This document shows, in pieces, positions 49,829 through 56,484 of a DNA stretch of 56,484 bases; the first letter of the stretch is position 1, and each line of letters starts with the position of its first letter. The notes under the pieces are model-generated. The model saw only the letters and a list, made by a program, of their open reading frames with translations. It was not told the origin of the DNA and searched no databases. The position numbers and the translations under genes were made by a program. Source of the DNA: Minisyncoccota bacterium (lineage in GTDB: Bacteria > Patescibacteriota > Minisyncoccia > Moranbacterales > GCA-2747515); the NCBI GenBank assembly GCA_937936355.1, contig CALDDM010000030.1, positions 1 to 56,484 on the forward strand, given 5' to 3'.

Positions 49829-50953
49829 ATGAAGATAGCAATTGATGCATCGCCAGCAGCAAAACACCTTCGCACCGGTATAGAGGAATACTCATATCAA
49901 ATCATCAGATCAATGCGAGAGACACTCAAAGATCATGACGTGGTTCTTTTTGTGCGCCGCGGAACTGCTGCGAATATAGATTTTCGCTTACCAGATCGGT
50001 GGAGAGTTAAAGAGATATGGAGTCCAATTCTATGGACGTATGGACGACTATCGATTGCAATGTTTTTTGGTCGTTTTGACAGGCTTTTTGTGCCAGGGCA
50101 TATCGTGCCACCAATACATCCTGATGGCACGGTATCAGTTGTGCATGGACTTGAGTACGAGGTAACGCCAGACGCATTCACCAAATCAGAGCATCATCGT
50201 ATGCGTTTTGGTGTGCAAAAATCTTGTAAATGGTCGCGATACGTCATCTGTGTTTCCAACAACACCAAATCCGACTTGATGAGGCTCTATGATATACCAC
50301 AGAGAAAAATCAGAGTCATTTATGAAGGCGTCAATGCACCAATCAAGATGGATGCAAATATCGCACATGCAGCACTGGCAAAATTTAAACTCGCAAGAGG
50401 TGAATATCTCTTTTTTGTTGGTCGGATCGAATCACGTAAGAACATCATAGGCATCCTCAAGGCGTTTGAAGTGCTCAAGGGGCACTTTGCAATCCCGCAC
50501 AAACTAGTTCTTGCAGGCAAGGAGGGAAACGGATGGGAAGAAATTTTAAGAGCAATTAACACGCATCCAAACAAAAAAGACATAATTGTTACAGGTTTTG
50601 TATCAACCGAAGAGAAATGGGCGCTCTTGGATGGAGCAAGTGTCTTTCTTTTCCCAACGCTGTATGAGGGATTTGGTCTGCCTGTACTAGAAGCGCAGCA
50701 AATAGGTGTGCCAGTTATCACATCTAATACGTCAGCATTACAAGAGATCGCCAAAGCACCAGGCGAAGAACAGAGTGCAATACTCGTAAACCCAGAAAAT
50801 CCAACAGAGATCGCAGAATCAACGCAGACACTTCTCACAGATCAAAAAGAGCGAGATGGTGTCATCGCAAAAGGATTGCGCAATACACAGAGATTCTCAT
50901 GGGAGAGGGCTGCAAAGCTCACGACCAAAGTGATTCTTGCAGGTCCTAAGTAG
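49829..50953 (+). CDS. Glycosyltransferase family 4 (GT-B)
   Basis: TGIEEY, FVGRIESRKNI, YEGFGLPVLEA and FSWERAA motifs. Confidence 0.95.
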   Translation: MKIAIDASPAAKHLRTGIEEYSYQIIRSMRETLKDHDVVLFVRRGTAANIDFRLPDRWRVKEIWSPILWTYGRLSIAMFFGRFDRLFVPGHIVPPIHPDGTVSVVHGLEYEVTPDAFTKSEHHRMRFGVQKSCKWSRYVICVSNNTKSDLMRLYDIPQRKIRVIYEGVNAPIKMDANIAHAALAKFKLARGEYLFFVGRIESRKNIIGILKAFEVLKGHFAIPHKLVLAGKEGNGWEEILRAINTHPNKKDIIVTGFVSTEEKWALLDGASVFLFPTLYEGFGLPVLEAQQIGVPVITSNTSALQEIAKAPGEEQSAILVNPENPTEIAESTQTLLTDQKERDGVIAKGLRNTQRFSWERAAKLTTKVILAGPK

Positions 50954-51050
50954 TGTAACAGCAATCTAAGTAGGTATCACTGGAACATCTTTACAGCGAT
51001 CGGTAAACATGATAAAATCTTCTTTGTACATATTTTCAGACTAAAAATAC

Positions 51051-51122
51051 GGTCCCATCGTCTAGCGGCTAGGACATCAGGTTCTCATCCTGAAAACCGG
51101 AGTTCGATTCTCCGTGGGATCA
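51051..51122 (+). tRNA. tRNA-Glu(CTC); probable integration site
   Basis: GGTCCCA/TGGGATC acceptor, TCAGG-TTCTCAT-CCTGA anticodon arm, CGGAG-TTCGATT-CTCCG T arm. Confidence 0.96.
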
Positions 51123-52611
51123 CAACTGACGATTCATCGTCTCCAAAACCCTTGTTTTGCGCTAAGATAAGCGAAACGTGAGGTGTTCCAAATCCATCTT
51201 TTCCATATCGCGGCTTTTCAGAAAAAATCAAACCCTGCAAAAGGAGTTTTTTGTCGTAATCTGACTTTTTCCAGAGTGTTGGGAGATCTTTAATTTGCTC
51301 AAAGACAATTGATATGACTTTATCGAGATCGATTTCTTCGTGCTGTAACTGACTATGCTTTGCATGAAACTTTTGGATACGAGCACTCAATTCATCCAAT
51401 GAATCTTTGAAATCAGCATCAGAGATAAGTTCTCGTGTTTTCATGCCAATGAGTCCCTTCTTTTCCTCCTCAAGTCGCTCTAAAGCTGCTTGAGAGGCCT
51501 TACGATCTTTCTCTATATCTTTGTATCGATTCTTCCACAAATCCATTATAATCACTTTCTGCGCTTTCAAAACACTCTCGTTTGGTGTTAGGCCAACGAG
51601 ATTCTTGACAAATGCTTTTTCAAGTTTATCTTTTGCTACTGATTTGAGTTTTCCACAGTCTTTGTTGTAGCATCGGTAGAATGGATATTTTTTACCTGAC
51701 TTACCTGTGGAATAGGCTGCAGTCAGTGGGCGAGCACAGTATGTGCAATGCACAAAGTTTCTGAGTGGGAAGTCTTGTGATTTCTCCTTCTTTGTTTTGT
51801 ATGTTGATTTACCATTTTTCTGTGCAATAATTTCTTGGCACCTGTAGTATATCTCTTCTGTGATGATGGATTTATGTGTTCCTGGATAATAATTGCCAGA
51901 GGATTCCACGTACATCACACCATGGTAGAACGTACGATTTATAATTTTTGACATAGTTTGTGCGGTAATCTCTTTTCCATTTTCGGTGCGTAGTCCTCGT
52001 TTGTTTGCTTTCTGGCGGATTTCCTCTAGTGTGTAGACTCCTTTTACAAATTGTTCAAAAACCCACTTAATGTGAGGGGCTCTTTCTGGATCTACGTCAA
52101 TCGTCTTTTTGCTGCCATCTCTTCCATTAACATAACCGATTGGTGCTTTCCATACCCATACACCTTGTTTAAGTTTTTCCTCCATGCAGGAAGAGATACG
52201 CTCGCTCTTGAGGTCATTGTCGAGTTGAGCATTTGCTGCCATCACATGCCCTATAAACTTTCCAGTGGGAGAGTTATCGATATTCTCTGTAGTGGAAATG
52301 AGTTGAATATTCAATTTCTTGAGCATCAAATCGATACTCGAATAATCATTCATATTGCGTGAAAGACGATCAATCTTGTAGACGATTACGCAATCAGTTT
52401 TCTTGTGATTTTTAGCACAGTGTTCAAGAAGTGCTTGTAGTCCTTTGCGATTAGTTGTTTTTGCAGAAACTCCATCATCATGAAATATTTCTTGCACATC
52501 AATACAATGATGTCTGGCATAATCGAGACATGCTCTTTTTTGTTGCTCTAGACTCACACCTTTCTCTGCCTGATCTTCGGTGGAGACTCGGTAGTAAATG
52601 ATTGCATTCAT
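51085..52611 (-). CDS. Large serine recombinase (integrase)
   Basis: YYRVSTEDQ catalytic Ser; YKIDRLSRN; APIGY recombinase domain; Zn ribbon CTYC...YRC...C; coiled coil; start trimmed to the ATG at 52611. Confidence 0.96.
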   Translation of the reverse strand: MNAIIYYRVSTEDQAEKGVSLEQQKRACLDYARHHCIDVQEIFHDDGVSAKTTNRKGLQALLEHCAKNHKKTDCVIVYKIDRLSRNMNDYSSIDLMLKKLNIQLISTTENIDNSPTGKFIGHVMAANAQLDNDLKSERISSCMEEKLKQGVWVWKAPIGYVNGRDGSKKTIDVDPERAPHIKWVFEQFVKGVYTLEEIRQKANKRGLRTENGKEITAQTMSKIINRTFYHGVMYVESSGNYYPGTHKSIITEEIYYRCQEIIAQKNGKSTYKTKKEKSQDFPLRNFVHCTYCARPLTAAYSTGKSGKKYPFYRCYNKDCGKLKSVAKDKLEKAFVKNLVGLTPNESVLKAQKVIIMDLWKNRYKDIEKDRKASQAALERLEEEKKGLIGMKTRELISDADFKDSLDELSARIQKFHAKHSQLQHEEIDLDKVISIVFEQIKDLPTLWKKSDYDKKLLLQGLIFSEKPRYGKDGFGTPHVSLILAQNKGFGDDESSVVIPRRIELRFSG

Positions 52612-52636
52612 AGTATTTTTAATTTGAAAATGAAAA

Positions 52637-52731
52637 GGAGCGACTATTGCCTGAACCCCAACATCGCAACCGATGATGGAAACAATAAATCGCTCCGTTT
52701 GATGCCACAAAAAAGTATCCTTTTACGGCAT
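52637..52731 (-). promoter_or_regulatory. Two-hairpin leader / attenuator upstream of the integrase
   Basis: Minus strand: ATGCC...GGCAT hairpin, then a 60-nt GGAGCGAT...GTCGCTCC hairpin followed by TTTTCATTTT. Confidence 0.6.
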
Positions 52732-52744
52732 AGGTTGGTTGCAA

Positions 52745-52930
52745 CTATTGTTGGGGTTCAAATGAATTATCCCTTATTTTGTTAATTTGGACAATATTTT
52801 CAGACTCCCAGAGATCGATACTTATTCCAGCAAGTTTATACTGCATACTGAGCAGCGCCATTAGTTCATCGTCAGATTTTTCATCAGCGTATGATCCTAA
52901 CAACTTTTTGTAGTAATTTAGTGAGATCAT
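52745..52930 (-). CDS. Small helical protein upstream of the integrase (candidate directionality factor)
   Basis: MISLNYYKKLLG...SDDEL...LA...IDLW; position in the integrase operon; function inferred only. Confidence 0.65.
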   Translation of the reverse strand: MISLNYYKKLLGSYADEKSDDELMALLSMQYKLAGISIDLWESENIVQINKIRDNSFEPQQ

Positions 52931-52940
52931 GGATATTTCG

Positions 52941-52990
52941 TGAAATCGCATAATCTTCTACCCTATAGGGCAAACTAATTTGCGATTTCA
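52941..52990. repeat. 50-bp dyad-symmetric element (candidate replication origin or protein-binding site)
   Basis: TGAAATCGCA-N10-CCCTATAGGG-N10-TGCGATTTCA; both palindromes share one centre. Confidence 0.7.
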
Positions 52991-52994
52991 GATC

Positions 52995-53993
52995 TTAGGC
53001 TAAAGTATAGATTTTTGTATTTCCGACACCTTTTGTTTCTACAAGTTCACCATCAATTTTTAAATCATCAATGATTCGCTTGGTAGATTTTTCGGCCGAT
53101 TTAAGTAGTTTTTGGATGTCACCTTTTTTGAGTCCATCTCCATGCTCTTTTAAAAGGTTGAGTATATCTTCTCTTAATTTCTCAGTCATCGGTTTTTGAG
53201 ATCCCTGAAATTCAAAAGAGAAATGCTCATCATCAGAGGCAACTTTAAGTTCAAATGGATCAGTCTCGGGACTGTAGCGTGCTTTCGGATTGCTGATAAA
53301 AACACTATTTTGCACACCAGTCTTTTTACCAATATGGATGTAGGAATCAATAGCTGCCATAATGTCTGATGATCCTCGTAAAGCATCTTTTTCAGACCCA
53401 ATAGAATGCTTTTTCGTGTGATGAAGGATGATAATTGTGGCTCCCGCTCTGGTTAAATCCTTAAACTTTTGAAACACCTTCGACATAGCGCCAGCATCAT
53501 TTTCTTCTGAATCATGAAATCGTGTCAGTGAATCAAAGATGACCACCTCCACACCTTGGTGCATCGCAAGTTCTAAGATCTCTTGTGTCATATCTGATTG
53601 ATCAAATATCAGATCTTCTTCATCAGGATCAAAATCCATTTTCATATCTGGTTGTGATGAGAAGTAAAACTCTTCATCTATCTCTTGACTATAGCCAAGC
53701 ATTTGAATTCTTTTTTGCACTTCTCGTGGGTGGTTTTCACCATCCAAAACTAAAACTTTTCTTTTCTTGCAAGGAAACTTTCCAAAGAGACTTTCGCCAT
53801 TTGCGATACATTTCGTCATCTCGAGAGAGATCCATGATTTATATTCTCCAGGCTTACCTCCAATAATTGTAATGCCCTCAGCAGGTACGAGACCTTCGAC
53901 TACCCATGGAATATCAGGGAAGTCTATGTTGAGCAGATCATGCGAACTGACAATAGAGCCATAAATATTCTCGTGATCAAATTGATCGTTCAT
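52995..53993 (-). CDS. RepA-like SF4 helicase (AAA_25) with C-terminal wHTH-like tail
   Basis: WVVEGLVP, Walker A variant GGKPGEYKS, LDGEN, Walker B VIFDSL, ILHHTKK and LRGSS motifs. Confidence 0.9.
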   Translation of the reverse strand: MNDQFDHENIYGSIVSSHDLLNIDFPDIPWVVEGLVPAEGITIIGGKPGEYKSWISLEMTKCIANGESLFGKFPCKKRKVLVLDGENHPREVQKRIQMLGYSQEIDEEFYFSSQPDMKMDFDPDEEDLIFDQSDMTQEILELAMHQGVEVVIFDSLTRFHDSEENDAGAMSKVFQKFKDLTRAGATIIILHHTKKHSIGSEKDALRGSSDIMAAIDSYIHIGKKTGVQNSVFISNPKARYSPETDPFELKVASDDEHFSFEFQGSQKPMTEKLREDILNLLKEHGDGLKKGDIQKLLKSAEKSTKRIIDDLKIDGELVETKGVGNTKIYTLA

Positions 53994-54132
53994 AACTATT
54001 TATTAATGACTTACAAAGTCTTAAAAAATACTCTGCATCCGTTAGAAAGTTTTTAGGACGGAATATAAAGAAAAACTTGCTTCTTAGGGTATAGCAAGTT
54101 CAACTTTTCATACATTAGATTTAAAGGATCCT

Positions 54133-55038
54133 TTATTTCATATATTCACCATTCACTTTTTTGACCTCAGTGTTGAACTGCGAGCGAATTAAATTGATAT
54201 TTTCATACTCATAGCTTTTGATGTTTGGAAGTCTTTCTTCCTCAGCCCAAGAAGCTATACGTGTATCCGGAGAGAAGCTTAAATCCTTAATCGCTGCTTT
54301 TTTGAGGTCAATATACTTATTGTGTATTTTAATTTTTGAAAAAAGACTCTTATCTGATGTGTCTCGATTTTTACTTGGTTTGGTACCTTTTAAGTTTGGT
54401 ATTATTTTGTCCCAGTCATGGTCGATGAACTTCTTGAGATCTTCCTTTTTTGAGTTTCGATTAAGTTGAACAATACAAACTTCCTCGCTTTCTATTCTCT
54501 TTTTGAGAATATCCTCATTCGAGATGCATGAACAAGTACTGTCATGACGGATTTTTGAAAAGGCATCCATGAAAAGGCTTTTGTTAAGGACGTATACTTG
54601 ATTACCCTGCGCCAAAGATCCAATTTTTAGATCATCACGTAGATTGATAATTTCTTCGAGTACTGCATCAGAGAGATTTAGGAAGTCAAAATGGGAAATA
54701 TTGTTTTCTTTGAGGTAGGTATTGTTCGCGATATATTTGTCATCAATATCACTTTCTTCCAAGAAGTCATTTACAAGGTCAGCAGAGTTTGGGTGCCATA
54801 CCCATTTGGTGATAGTTTTTCTTTCCATCTTGCTTTCAGAGCTCTTTTTCAGTTCAGTCACCTCATTTTCTTTGATAATTACCTCAGAGCTAAAGCTATC
54901 AATTTTTTTGTACAACAGAGTGCTCTTTTTGTGAAGTATATAGAACTTTAAAATCTTCGCTTCTAAGTGTTTCTTCTCCGAAAGTAATCGAGAGTATAAA
55001 TCAGCAAACAAAGGGTCAATCTTTATTTTTCTTCTCAT
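54133..55038 (-). CDS. Hypothetical protein of the element (possibly a regulator)
   Basis: 301-aa K-rich open frame co-directional with the helicase; no family recognised. Confidence 0.75.
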   Translation of the reverse strand: MRRKIKIDPLFADLYSRLLSEKKHLEAKILKFYILHKKSTLLYKKIDSFSSEVIIKENEVTELKKSSESKMERKTITKWVWHPNSADLVNDFLEESDIDDKYIANNTYLKENNISHFDFLNLSDAVLEEIINLRDDLKIGSLAQGNQVYVLNKSLFMDAFSKIRHDSTCSCISNEDILKKRIESEEVCIVQLNRNSKKEDLKKFIDHDWDKIIPNLKGTKPSKNRDTSDKSLFSKIKIHNKYIDLKKAAIKDLSFSPDTRIASWAEEERLPNIKSYEYENINLIRSQFNTEVKKVNGEYMK

Positions 55039-55086
55039 TTAATTGAAAATAGTGATTATATATACTACACTAAGAATACAACTTAA

Positions 55087-55235
55087 TAGGCCCAACCGCC
55101 ATTTTTGGTGAGTGGTCTAAAAATCGTTCAAAGCAATAACCTCCTCATGAGGATGCTTTGAACGTCACAGGTAGGAATATCTGTGGAGTCAGCAATGACT
55201 CGCCTTGTGGGGAGTTTTTTGTTTTCCCACAAGGC
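55087..55235 (+). ncRNA. Candidate structured RNA / cis-regulatory leader with five hairpins
   Basis: Stems 55087-55119, 55125-55164, 55166-55185 (GGAA loop), 55186-55201 (GCAA loop) and 55202-55235; G-U pairs and GNRA loops on the + strand. Confidence 0.6.
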
Positions 55236-55257
55236 CATACTTGAATTATGTGTTTTT

Positions 55258-55539
55258 ATGGAACCTAGTTTTATCTCACAACTTTTACATCTCATTTTCT
55301 TTGGTGGCGCTGCATTTATCCTGAAAAGAACATTTTTTGTCGGATCAGGTATCAAAATAATTGAGTGGAGAACTACGTGCCTTTTGGCAGGTCTATACAT
55401 TCTTGGTGCTGCATATCCTGCGTATAAATACGGCATTCAGGAAGTCCACATTATTACACTGGTTGCAATTGTAATGATTTTACGTTCGCAACAGATAGCA
55501 ACTTTTTCAAATACATCAAAGAGCAATGAAAATCGATAA
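55258..55539 (+). CDS. Small membrane protein (2-3 TM)
   Basis: MEPSFISQLLHLIFFGGAAFIL... hydrophobic segments; start placed at the ATG after the structured RNA. Confidence 0.65.
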   Translation: MEPSFISQLLHLIFFGGAAFILKRTFFVGSGIKIIEWRTTCLLAGLYILGAAYPAYKYGIQEVHIITLVAIVMILRSQQIATFSNTSKSNENR

Positions 55540-56484
55540 ATATTATCCAGACTACTTCCAAAAAGATGTCCTATTACTGCAGGATATTGGCATCGATTGT
55601 CTGTGTGGCCGCGTCTTTCAGGGTGCTGTCAGAGAATATAAGGAACAATTTGCTAACCTCAAGCTTTTTGTACTATGTTCCTATGAGATCAATCTCATTG
55701 ATCAAATCATCTATACTCACTTTCAAGATGATCATAACGCGTGGATCAGTAATGTTGGTCCCTTTATTTCTTCCCGTTGCACATATGAAAGTTTGCCGCA
55801 TAAGCCACTGATCCATCTCGCAAAGATCTCGGAGTTAATGTTATACGAAGATATTACTGAGGCAGACCATTTTTTCTTTGGTCTACTTGCTGAAATGGCG
55901 AATCAAGATCAGTTCACAACACTGACAATCAAAAATATAACGGAAAAGATGAAAGAGGATCGTGACGTTCTCAAGGCAAAATCCGACCTAAGGAGACTAT
56001 TCTCAAAAAGTGAAAGACAAAGGAGTGTTCGAGGGAAGGTCTTGGTAAATCAAGTTTCTGTAGAAACGCCAGATGATCTAGATGAATTACTATATGCAGA
56101 CACACGGCTCATATGGCAGGAACATCTAAGTGAGAACGATCTGAGCCTTCAAAAGATCAAAAAACATAAGAATGATAAAGGGTATTCATCGTTTACTACT
56201 GTGAAATCAGGAAAGGTTTTTGAGCGACAAGAAGAATATTGGACAGTCAAAGATTGTGAAAGTGGGGATCTCTACCTTCTGATCTCAAAAAAGTCAGTAA
56301 CTGATAATCATATCAAGGACGAAGAGGGGGCTGCAGGAAGAGGGCTTATTCTCCAAGAGTTTAATTACTATTTCCCATGTAGAGACGAAGTAGAAATTGA
56401 CGATATATTGTTTGAACCGATTATCAATATCGATTATGAGGAAAGTTTGCAGAGAAAATATATTTTTCACTATGTGATGAGCGA
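55526..56484 (+). CDS. Hypothetical protein, 3' truncated by the window (>319 aa); absent from the ORF track
   Basis: Manual translation MKIDKYYPDYFQKDVLLLQDIGIDCLCGRVF...RKYIFHYVMS stays open to the window end; overlaps the upstream gene by 14 nt. Confidence 0.8.
   Translation, partial: MKIDKYYPDYFQKDVLLLQDIGIDCLCGRVFQGAVREYKEQFANLKLFVLCSYEINLIDQIIYTHFQDDHNAWISNVGPFISSRCTYESLPHKPLIHLAKISELMLYEDITEADHFFFGLLAEMANQDQFTTLTIKNITEKMKEDRDVLKAKSDLRRLFSKSERQRSVRGKVLVNQVSVETPDDLDELLYADTRLIWQEHLSENDLSLQKIKKHKNDKGYSSFTTVKSGKVFERQEEYWTVKDCESGDLYLLISKKSVTDNHIKDEEGAAGRGLILQEFNYYFPCRDEVEIDDILFEPIINIDYEESLQRKYIFHYVMS

What the first reader, a model, noticed from the sequence alone, without database searches (positions are those of the whole stretch)
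55087..55235. Five abutting hairpins with GNRA loops and a mutually exclusive terminator: candidate new ncRNA or switch in the island
Seen: H1 TAGGCC..CGCCA-TTTT-TGGTG..GGTCTA; H2 an 11-bp perfect stem CGTTCAAAGCA/TGCTTTGAACG; H3 CACAGGTA-GGAA-TATCTGTG; H4 GAGTCA-GCAA-TGACTC; H5 GCCTTGTGGG/CCCACAAGGC. H2 to H5 are separated by only 0-1 nt. The G-U wobbles and both GNRA tetraloops read on the + strand, which favours an RNA over a dsDNA operator. Positions 55197-55216 can instead fold as GACTC-G-CC-TTGT-GG-G-GAGTT followed by a T-tract, a terminator that excludes H4 and H5. Inference: either an attenuator/riboswitch controlling the cargo genes at 55258 and 55526, or a stand-alone RNA working with them (RNA antitoxin, or a P4 CI-like immunity RNA). 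I do not recognise the family.
Basis: partly seen in the sequence, partly recalled or inferred. Interest (0 to 1): 0.78.

Follow-up and report, generated by a model that had tools for sequence, protein, structure and literature searches.

The report
Known LOOT RNA with pseudoknot terminator
The five-hairpin element is a copy of LOOT, an already catalogued bacterial RNA of unknown function, and here it sits with its own promoter and stop signal in front of a small membrane-protein gene on a mobile island.

Summary
The hairpins are real. The + strand folds at -73.8 kcal/mol, z -8.5. But the element is not new: Rfam's LOOT model (RF03000) matches window 55089-55201 (+) over its full length at 69.6 bits, cut-off 46.4. 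This scan has already noted LOOT 38 times on other DNA.

The Rfam match covers H1-H4. H5 lies outside the model and is missing from the genome's three other LOOT copies.

The conserved 3' feature is the 13 nt before the U-tract (55202-55214). These pair with the apical hairpin of H2 (55141-55152). This long-range helix occurs in 53 of 53 LOOT loci, ends 0-2 nt before the U-tract, and covaries.

A local hairpin that strong is found in only 8 of 53 loci.

A conserved promoter precedes LOOT. A co-oriented ORF, mostly membrane-anchored, follows within 3-138 nt in at least 44 of 53 loci.

Best reading: a promoter-to-terminator LOOT unit that gates the gene at 55258. A free-standing sRNA is not excluded. 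No expression data were available.

The parts
55043..55071 (+). Promoter-like site: -35 TTGAAA (55043-48), 17-nt spacer, -10 TACACT (55066-71)
   Evidence: the only + strand promoter-like site in 54800-55600. The -35 hexamer is invariant in the four copies of this genome. A promoter-like site lies within 75 nt upstream in 33 of 53 LOOT loci, against 1 of 53 control segments.
55077..55082 (+). Conserved TACAAC box at the inferred transcription start
   Evidence: Invariant in the four own-genome copies. An ACAA box lies within 22 nt upstream of the model start in 39 of 53 loci, against 10 of 53 controls. The start site itself is inferred from the spacing to the -10 hexamer, not measured.
55089..55201 (+). 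LOOT RNA core (Rfam RF03000), helices H1-H4
   Evidence: cmscan: 69.6 bits, gathering score 46.4, E 4.4e-11 in the whole window, model positions 1-121 of 121. The fold reproduces the helices.
55141..55152 (+). 5' strand of long-range helix S2. It covers the 5' arm (less its first base), the loop and the 3' arm of the apical hairpin of H2
   Evidence: 12 contiguous pairs with 55203-55214, -18.8 kcal/mol, 3 of them G-U.
55202..55214 (+). 'DN' segment: 3' strand of S2.
   Evidence: In 53 of 53 loci the equivalent segment pairs with that locus's own H2 apex and ends 0-2 nt before the U-tract. Covariation is shown.
55197..55216 (+).
   Evidence: -9.5 kcal/mol against -6.8 for H4. The terminator scan hits 55199-55211. 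A local hairpin of <= -7 kcal/mol abutting the U-tract occurs in only 8 of 53 loci.
55215..55225 (+). U-tract (TTTTTTGTTTT), the inferred 3' end of the terminated RNA
   Evidence: Sequence read. A T-rich run of the form TTTTTTGT follows the DN segment in 50 of 53 loci by the criterion; three (L029, L041, L052) had none by that criterion.
55223..55235 (+). 'anti-DN': 3' arm of H5. It can form only in transcripts that read past the U-tract
   Evidence: The H5 hairpin is -21.6 kcal/mol. The arm is absent from the three other copies in this genome. A comparable downstream partner (<= -12 kcal/mol) occurs in 23 of 53 loci, against 16% of mismatched locus pairs.
55258..55539 (+). First downstream ORF, 93 aa, hydrophobic. 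It starts 32 nt after the U-tract, with no promoter-like site of its own
   Evidence: No Pfam, PHROG or PADLOC family. Not found in 100 relatives' genomes. Whether it is a real gene is not shown.
55526..56484 (+). Second downstream ORF, more than 319 aa, overlapping the first by 14 nt and cut by the contig end
   Evidence: No family hit. Not found in 100 relatives' genomes.
54133..55038 (-). Divergent upstream ORF, 301 aa, first gene of the island's minus-strand block
   Evidence: No family hit. No similarity to the proteins at the same position beside the other own-genome LOOT copies.
51051..53993 (.). Island backbone: tRNA-Glu (51051-51123, +), large serine recombinase (about 51085-52614, -), 68-aa ORF, AAA_25 ATPase of primase/helicase type (52995-53993, -)
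   Evidence: Resolvase, Recombinase and Zn_ribbon_recom domains have E 1e-33 to 4e-7. AAA_25 has E 1e-30. PHROG matches are to primase/helicase families.

Best explanation
The element is one of four copies in this genome of the known LOOT RNA (Rfam RF03000). It forms a self-contained transcription unit, with these parts in order:
- a sigma-70-like promoter (55043-55071) with an inferred start near 55078;
- four GNRA-rich helices (55087-55201);
- a 13-nt segment (55202-55214);
- a U-tract (55215-55225).

The conserved helix in front of the U-tract is not a local hairpin. It is a long-range helix, S2, between that 13-nt segment and the apical hairpin of H2 (55141-55152). If the outer stem of H2 stays closed, S2 is a pseudoknot.

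I infer that S2 serves as the terminator stem and gives an RNA of about 145 nt. Polymerases that escape termination read into the membrane-protein ORF at 55258, which has no promoter of its own. On this reading LOOT acts as a gate (leader) for the island's cargo.

In this copy there are two extra competitors for the same segment:
- a local hairpin using the 3' arm of H4;
- a downstream complement, the 3' arm of H5, which is available only after read-through.

Shown: family membership, the promoter and terminator motifs, S2 and its covariation, and the downstream gene arrangement. Inferred: that S2 terminates transcription, that read-through is regulated, and whatever signal regulates it.
For: Identity. 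Full-length match at 69.6 bits against a cut-off of 46.4. Four copies over the cut-off in the own genome.

Distribution. LOOT was found in 17 of 61 relatives' genomes and 30 of 151 genomes sampled across the phylum, both counts including the window's genome, and in 0 of 14 control genomes.

Transcription unit. The -35 hexamer, the TACAAC box and the terminator segment are shared by paralogs whose flanks are otherwise unrelated. Promoter-like sites lie upstream in 33 of 53 loci, against 1 of 53 control segments.

S2.
- The duplex between a locus's H2 apex and its own DN segment averages -21.67 kcal/mol. Mismatched locus pairs average -12.00. None of 10,000 permutations did as well.
- The own segment ranks among the best three in 46 of 53 loci.
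- The helix ends 0-2 nt before the U-tract in 53 of 53 loci.
- 136 of 717 pairs are G-U, which would be mismatches on the other strand (all).
- RNAalifold chose this helix unprompted.
- On alignment A2, 86.4% of cells pair against 68.6% in shuffles (0 of 500 as high). Double changes number 137 against 43.5. Slid controls give 40-56%.
- The DN segment folded alone averages only -1.85 kcal/mol.

Leader reading.
- A co-oriented ORF starts 3-138 nt after the U-tract in 44 of 53 loci by a length criterion.
- The 5 ambiguous loci, and 3 of the 4 called opposite, also have a co-oriented ORF there (36-273 aa). The fourth, L024, has only a 60-aa highly basic ORF.
- The window has only 32 nt between the U-tract and the ATG, and no second promoter-like site.
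- No protein family is shared by all loci.
Against: There is no expression evidence of any kind. No RNA run was listed, so the start, the end and any read-through are inferred.

Rfam files LOOT as 'Gene; sRNA'. A strong helix plus a U-tract could equally mean efficient constitutive termination and a free-standing RNA.

A pseudoknot with an 11-bp and a 12-bp stem, joined by a 5-nt and a 1-nt loop, may be strained. Nested alternatives are nearly isoenergetic: -56.5 kcal/mol for the MFE with the local hairpin, -54.4 with S2 enforced. Thermodynamics therefore does not decide the fold.

Downstream genes have no common function beyond frequent membrane anchors, so no ligand or signal can be proposed.

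My ORF calls are crude. They are not from a gene finder, and related genomes are not independent.

The 93-aa ORF has no homologue in 100 relatives and may not be a gene.
Confidence: 0.5

Rival explanations
1. LOOT is a free-standing small RNA that acts in trans, as Rfam files it. S2 is part of its mature tertiary fold and also its intrinsic terminator. The downstream gene is expressed independently or only by leak.
For: Rfam type 'Gene; sRNA'. It has its own promoter and a helix plus U-tract at the 3' end in 53 of 53 loci. There are several copies per genome with unrelated flanks. The nucleotides that MAFFT alignment A2 lists as invariant or nearly invariant map to the H1 internal loop, the A-rich linker, the H2/H3 junction and the GNRA loops. 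That fits a compact RNA bound by a partner.
Against: A co-oriented ORF lies within 138 nt after the U-tract in at least 44 of 53 loci. The gap is usually too short for a separate promoter; it is 32 nt in the window, with no promoter-like site. In 13 of 53 loci an exact copy of at least 9 nt of the RNA's own H2 5' strand lies downstream, next to the following gene's ATG in the contexts printed. Mismatched pairs show this in 0.6% of cases, and the 3' strand control in 0 of 53. That points to action in cis on that mRNA. The window's copy has no such repeat.
Confidence: 0.33
2. It is a ligand- or factor-sensing riboswitch-type attenuator. S2 is an aptamer pseudoknot that, when stabilised, withholds the DN segment from the local terminator hairpin (55197-55216), as in ZTP and fluoride riboswitches. 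On this reading S2 prevents termination rather than causing it.
For: In the window, the DN segment is shared by S2 and by a local hairpin that is more stable than H4 (-9.5 against -6.8 kcal/mol). The family has conserved junction and loop nucleotides. Pseudoknot-versus-terminator competition is established for ZTP and fluoride riboswitches; I saw those papers only as search listings.
Against: A local hairpin of <= -7 kcal/mol abutting the U-tract exists in only 8 of 53 loci. The mean local hairpin is -4.9 kcal/mol, against -21.7 for S2. Most members would therefore have no terminator left if S2 were the anti-terminator. Downstream genes share no metabolic theme.
Confidence: 0.1
3. It is a DNA-level element of the island, such as a recombinase attachment site, a single-strand origin or an oriT. 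The hairpins would then be incidental to RNA.
For: It lies on an island with a large serine recombinase and a primase/helicase-type ATPase. Serine recombinase genes lie within 1.5 kb in 11 of 53 LOOT loci.
Against: 19% of S2 pairs are G-U. The - strand folds markedly less well. Compensatory changes occur in every helix. The promoter and U-tract have a fixed polarity. 42 of 53 loci have no recombinase in the 1.5-kb flanks; in the phylum-wide sample only 1 of 29 has one.
Confidence: 0.03

Closest known systems
LOOT RNA motif, Rfam RF03000. It comes from the Weinberg et al. 2017 survey (PMC5737381), where it appears only in the supplement, which I could not open. It is shown in Rfam 14 (PMC7779021, Figure 1 legend read), mentioned in the CaCoFold paper (bioRxiv 10.1101/2020.02.04.933952, one passage read) and listed in Rfam 15, Table 2 (PMC11701678, passage read).
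   Same: Full-length match over all 121 model positions. The same six helices and the same GNRA-capped last two hairpins. Genomes of 0.5-1.3 Mb in the same phylum carry it.
   Different: Nothing that excludes membership. The Rfam model stops at H4. The S2 helix with the pre-U-tract segment, the promoter, and the downstream-gene pattern described here lie outside the model. I could not check whether the original supplement mentions them.
Intrinsic (Rho-independent) terminators
   Same: A G+C-rich helix ends 0-2 nt before a U-tract. An A-rich stretch 5' of the helix can extend it by pairing with the U-tract.
   Different: The two strands of the conserved helix are about 50 nt apart and enclose the 3' strand of H2 plus H3 and H4, instead of a 3-8 nt loop. 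With H2 closed it is a pseudoknot. Whether such a helix releases RNA polymerase is not tested.
Pseudoknot-containing transcriptional riboswitches (ZTP, fluoride), and 'tug-of-war' antitermination by structures just upstream of a terminator (Bushhouse et al., bioRxiv 10.64898/2026.06.17.733018, abstract read)
   Same: A pseudoknot strand overlaps a terminator element. A stable hairpin (H4) sits directly upstream of the terminator segment.
   Different: No ligand and no coherent regulon. In most LOOT loci the pseudoknot helix is the only strong helix before the U-tract, so the polarity (pseudoknot means stop) would be the reverse of ZTP and fluoride.

Membership tests
LOOT RNA (Rfam RF03000) | Covariance-model score at or above the curated gathering score, over the whole model | tested here: met
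   69.6 bits against 46.4. Model positions 1-121 of 121, window 55089-55201 (+), E 4.4e-11 for the whole window. No hit on the - strand.
LOOT RNA (Rfam RF03000) | Consensus secondary structure: H1 in two parts, long H2 with an apical hairpin, and two 3' hairpins | tested here: met
   The MFE fold of this sequence alone reproduces all the helices. cmscan marks the apical H2 hairpin as non-canonical only because it is shorter here (4 bp) than in the model (8 bp).
LOOT RNA (Rfam RF03000) | GNRA tetraloops on the last two hairpins and conserved unpaired motifs (GCCUAA ... AUGG in H1, A-rich linker) | tested here: met
   Loops are GGAA and GCAA. H1 reads GCCCAA ... GUGG, a variant seen in 6 of the 53 aligned loci: L001, L002, L003, L011, L014 and L021. 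The AAAAA linker is present.
LOOT RNA (Rfam RF03000) | Occurrence in uncultivated small-genome bacterial lineages. The taxon names are recalled, not from a call | not testable with these tools
LOOT was found in 30 of 151 genomes sampled from the window's phylum, all 0.5-1.3 Mb, and in 0 of 14 control genomes.
Intrinsic terminator | Stable G+C-rich stem directly followed by a U-tract | tested here: met
   Pattern only. Local hairpin 55197-55216 at -9.5 kcal/mol, then T6GT4. Long-range helix S2 at -18.8 kcal/mol ends at 55214, directly before the U-tract. Termination itself was not measured.
Riboswitch / metabolite-sensing attenuator | Conserved aptamer upstream of functionally coherent genes, with mutually exclusive terminator and antiterminator folds | tested here: inconclusive
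   Mutually exclusive folds exist in the window. Downstream genes are heterogeneous: Zn-ribbon membrane proteins in 10 loci, DUF2726 in 6, another membrane family in 5, many orphans. No ligand can be inferred.
   No tandem repeat in 54800-55500. No Rfam family other than LOOT at E <= 1 in 54900-55500. No defence or toxin family in the flanking proteins at E <= 0.001.

The most novel reading that the evidence does not exclude
LOOT is not the trans-acting small RNA it is filed as. It is a portable cis-acting gate used by small-genome bacteria on mobile islands. Its terminator stem is a covarying pseudoknot between the tip of its longest hairpin and the bases just before the U-tract. Read-through into the next gene, usually a membrane-anchored protein, depends on whether that pseudoknot forms. 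Downstream decoy copies of LOOT strands reset the fold in read-through mRNAs: the 3' arm of H5 here, and copies of the H2 5' strand next to the start codon elsewhere. Other agents of this scan reached the same reading on other genomes.
Probability: 0.35. Interest if true: 0.55.

Novelty: already known. Interest (0 to 1): 0.27.

Why it matters
As a discovery claim it does not stand. The RNA has been in Rfam since release 14, and this scan has met it on at least 37 other genomes.

What remains of interest is that LOOT has no known function. The data here add testable anatomy that lies outside the Rfam model:
- a conserved promoter;
- a covarying long-range helix that abuts the U-tract in 53 of 53 loci;
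- a nearly universal co-oriented downstream gene.

If the helix is the terminator stem, LOOT would be a natural pseudoknot-closed terminator or leader, carried on mobile DNA of bacteria in which gene regulation is almost unstudied.

Tried and rejected
- Expression. No RNA holder was listed for window 53000-56484.
- First orientation count. It was flawed because it took the first ATG/GTG/TTG after a stop and let shadow ORFs win. I replaced it. Only the anti-DN and strand-copy counts are used.
-. The hard constraint meant to force the DN 3' end into a local hairpin did not take effect; the 'forced' and free energies are identical in 53 of 53 loci. Only the 'DN alone' and free-fold numbers are used. 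redid the question.
-. The DN segment was mis-cut in L014 and L020 because of a TTT inside it. One search recomputed this with a better U-tract rule; three loci (L029, L041, L052) then had no U-tract by that rule and were given an 18-nt segment.
- Pairing of LOOT with the start region of the 55258 ORF. The best duplex is -12.2 kcal/mol, worse than most shuffles (282 of 300 as good or better). There is no evidence of start-site masking in this copy. The copy of the H2 5' strand seen beside start codons in 13 of 53 loci is also absent here; the longest shared word is 4 nt.
- A protein partner. The flanking proteins of the three similar own-genome copies show no similarity (best E 2.4). No protein cluster covers more than 11 of 53 loci.
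- Copies of LOOT fragments elsewhere in the island. None among the repeats of at least 13 nt in 50900-56484.
- Literature. 'LOOT RNA', 'LOOT motif', RF03000 and variants returned only Rfam and CaCoFold papers. 'Patescibacteria' + 'structured RNA' + 'leader' returned nothing. The Weinberg 2017 main text does not mention LOOT. Its supplement is closed and may describe the terminator or a pseudoknot.

Full report
**Observation.** The MFE of 55080-55245 on the + strand is -73.8 kcal/mol, against -40.2 +/- 3.9 for 200 dinucleotide shuffles (z -8.5, none as good). It consists of five abutting hairpins:
- H1, 55087-55119.
- H2, with an 11-bp perfect outer stem (55125-35 / 55154-64) and a 4-bp apical hairpin (55140-43 / 55149-52).
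- H3, 55166-85, loop GGAA.
- H4, 55186-55201, loop GCAA.
- H5, 55202-35.

The - strand folds less well (-58.6 kcal/mol, z -5.4). The region is the 219-nt spacer between a minus-strand ORF ending at 55038 and a plus-strand ORF starting at 55258.

**Identity.** Rfam 15 cmscan of the whole window gives one non-tRNA hit. It is LOOT (RF03000, type 'Gene; sRNA') at 55089-55201 on the + strand, 69.6 bits against a gathering score of 46.4, E 4.4e-11, model positions 1-121 of 121. With permissive filters on 54900-55500 it is the only family at E <= 1. The match covers H1-H4; H5 is outside the model.

In the papers I could search, LOOT appears only in four places:
- As a catalogued motif in the legend of Rfam 14, Figure 1 (PMC7779021).
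- In a passage of the CaCoFold preprint: about 43 bp in six helices, with 28 'cross-covariations'.
- In Rfam 15, Table 2.
- The Weinberg 2017 main text does not mention it.

I found no functional study. This scan had already noted LOOT in 38 findings on at least 37 genomes.

**Copies and distribution.** The window's genome (1.21 Mb, 37 contigs; the window is the whole of contig C30) has four LOOT matches over the cut-off. LOOT was found in 17 of 61 relatives' genomes and 30 of 151 genomes drawn evenly from the phylum. Both counts include the window's genome. It was found in 0 of 14 control genomes. Presence is patchy even within genera. I collected 53 loci: 24 from the relatives search, and 29 from the phylum sample at one per genome.

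**What the paralogs share.** Aligning the four own-genome copies with their flanks shows these shared features:
- an invariant TTGAA -35 element;
- a -10-like hexamer;
- an invariant TACAAC box just before H1;
- the LOOT core;
- a short segment followed by a T-tract. It is nearly identical in three of the four copies; in the C29 copy the segment differs in sequence but is again followed by TTTTGTGTTGT.

The 3' arm of H5 is not shared. The flanking proteins show no similarity (best blastp E 2.4).

Across the 53 loci, a promoter-like site lies within 75 nt upstream in 33, against 1 of 53 control segments. An ACAA box lies within 22 nt of the model start in 39, against 10. In the window the site is TTGAAA-17-TACACT at 55043-55071, the only + strand site in 54800-55600. 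LOOT is therefore a portable unit running from promoter to T-tract.

**The conserved 3' element.** The 13 nt between H4 and the T-tract (55202-55214, 'DN') are complementary to the whole apical hairpin of H2. Positions 55141-55152 pair with 55203-55214 over 12 contiguous pairs, three of them G-U, at -18.8 kcal/mol. I call this helix S2. The evidence across the family is as follows:
- In all 53 loci the equivalent segments form an 11-18-bp duplex that ends 0-2 nt before the T-tract.
- Matched pairs average -21.67 kcal/mol. Pairs taken from different loci average -12.00.
- None of 10,000 permutations of the assignment reached the observed mean. This held separately in the first 24 loci and in the 29 phylum-sample loci.
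- The own segment ranks first in 27 loci and in the top three in 46 of 53.
- 136 of 717 pairs are G-U (all).
- RNAalifold on a plain MAFFT alignment (A2) chose this helix without prompting, together with an A-rich/U-tract extension.
- Counting a 15-pair version on A2 gives 86.4% of cells paired against 68.6% in shuffles (0 of 500 as high). Double changes number 137 against 43.5 (0 of 500). All 15 pairs have compensatory changes. Partners slid by 1-3 columns give 40-56%.
- The pairs were derived from the same sequences, so the slid control flatters the structure somewhat. Related genomes are also not independent. The permutation of loci and the replication in the phylum sample are the stronger controls.

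The DN segment folded alone is almost unstructured, with a mean of -1.85 kcal/mol. If the outer stem of H2 stays closed, S2 is an H-type pseudoknot with an 11-bp and a 12-bp stem, a 5-nt A-rich loop and a 1-nt loop. Other agents of this scan reported the same helix on other genomes (e1-1549608, e1-804489). I reached it from the flanks before reading those notes.

The local hairpin at 55197-55216 is real: -9.5 kcal/mol against -6.8 for H4. In the MFE of a transcript ending at 55225 it displaces H4. The terminator scan finds its core. It is not a family feature, though. A local hairpin of <= -7 kcal/mol abutting the T-tract occurs in 8 of 53 loci, including this copy, two of its paralogs and L021. 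The mean local hairpin is -4.9 kcal/mol, against -7.5 for H4.

The 3' arm of H5 (55223-35) lies after the T-tract, so H5 can form only in read-through RNA (-21.6 kcal/mol). A comparable downstream complement of DN (<= -12 kcal/mol) occurs in 23 of 53 loci, against 16% of mismatched pairs.

For the window the three competing folds are close in energy. The MFE with the local hairpin is -56.5 kcal/mol. A nested fold with S2 enforced is -54.4 kcal/mol. My rough estimate for a pseudoknotted form is similar. Thermodynamics does not decide between them.

**Context.** The island starts at tRNA-Glu (51051-51123). On the minus strand it carries:
- a large serine recombinase (Resolvase, Recombinase and Zn_ribbon_recom domains);
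- a 68-aa ORF;
- an AAA_25 ATPase that matches phage primase/helicase families;
- the 301-aa ORF.

LOOT and two overlapping orphan ORFs (93 aa, hydrophobic; and more than 319 aa) run the other way, to the contig end. Neither ORF has a Pfam, PHROG or PADLOC family, and neither was found in 100 relatives' genomes.

In the 53 loci, by a length criterion, a co-oriented ORF starts 3-138 nt after the T-tract in 44. Four are called opposite and five ambiguous, the window among them because of a 102-aa shadow ORF. The five ambiguous loci, and three of the four called opposite, also carry a co-oriented ORF of 36-273 aa at that place. L024 has only a 60-aa highly basic ORF.

Recurrent downstream families are Zn-ribbon membrane proteins (10 loci), DUF2726 (6) and a 'WYKKWW' membrane family (5). 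A serine recombinase lies within 1.5 kb in 11 loci, nearly all in the window's own order and only 1 of the 29 phylum-sample loci. No protein accompanies LOOT everywhere.

In 13 of 53 loci an exact copy of at least 9 nt of the locus's own H2 5' strand lies downstream, in the printed contexts beside the downstream ATG. This compares with 0.6% of mismatched pairs and 0 of 53 for the 3' strand control. The window's copy lacks it, and LOOT does not pair unusually well with the 55258 start region.

**Mechanism.** Shown: a known RNA family; a polar unit with promoter and T-tract; a covarying long-range helix directly before the T-tract; and a close co-oriented gene that has no room for its own promoter here. 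Inferred: S2 acts as the terminator stem and yields an RNA of about 145 nt, and the downstream gene is reached only by read-through. On that reading LOOT works as a gate for island cargo, and in this copy the 3' arm of H4 and the 3' arm of H5 are extra competitors for the DN segment. I put about 0.5 on this composite. Family membership alone is about 0.97 and the reality of S2 about 0.85.

The main rival (0.33) is a free-standing sRNA, as filed in Rfam. A ZTP- or fluoride-like polarity, in which the pseudoknot prevents termination, fits only the 8 loci with a usable local hairpin (0.1). A DNA-level site is disfavoured by the G-U pairs, the strand asymmetry and the covariation (0.03). No signal or ligand can be proposed. 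There is no expression evidence, because no RNA run was listed.

**Verdict.** The novelty claim is refuted by a strong Rfam match. The case is ordinary as a find, with modest residual interest because LOOT's function is unknown and its pseudoknot/terminator design is, as far as my searches show, not in print.

Noticed in passing
L011:720-880 (- strand of the locus; about 40-100 nt downstream of its LOOT copy): A partial second LOOT (an H1-like hairpin plus the 5' strand of H2) follows the complete copy and runs into the start of the next ORF. This suggests that tandem duplication and decay is one source of the downstream 'strand copies'.
   Followed up: partly
13 of 53 LOOT loci (L005, L010, L011, L012, L015, L018, L019, L020, L025, L028, L033, L037, L045): An exact copy of at least 9 nt of the locus's own H2 5' strand sits downstream, in most cases just before the downstream start codon; in two it spans the ATG (L010, L045) and in one it lies just after it (L005). 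Mismatched loci show this in 0.6% of cases, and the 3' strand control in 0 of 53. Together with the downstream complement of the DN segment, it would allow a mirror-image fold that covers the start site. The window's copy lacks it.
   Followed up: partly
window 52941-52990: A 25+25-nt abutting inverted repeat (76% complementary) lies between the 68-aa ORF and the AAA_25 ATPase gene of the island. It could be an operator or an origin-like site.
   Followed up: no
window 51030-51042 and 52794-52806: An exact 13-nt direct repeat (ATATTTTCAGACT), with one copy just upstream of tRNA-Glu and one inside the island (a third copy at 54197 is 92% identical). It may be chance. I did not test it as an attachment-site remnant.
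   Followed up: no
L004:1107-1355 (own genome, contig C29; about 145 nt upstream of that LOOT copy): An 82-aa ORF whose sequence looked to me like a double-stranded-RNA-binding domain sits just upstream of the C29 LOOT copy. This is by eye only, with no family search. That copy is followed by a DUF2726 protein (Pfam E 1e-26).
   Followed up: no
L003:1-537 and L023:99-1454: Some LOOT copies lie next to genes that look defence-related. One is an ORF that looked RloB/DUF4276-like to me in the own genome (contig C14). The other is a 451-aa ATPase with a P-loop N-terminus in a same-genus genome. This is by eye only, with no family search.
   Followed up: no
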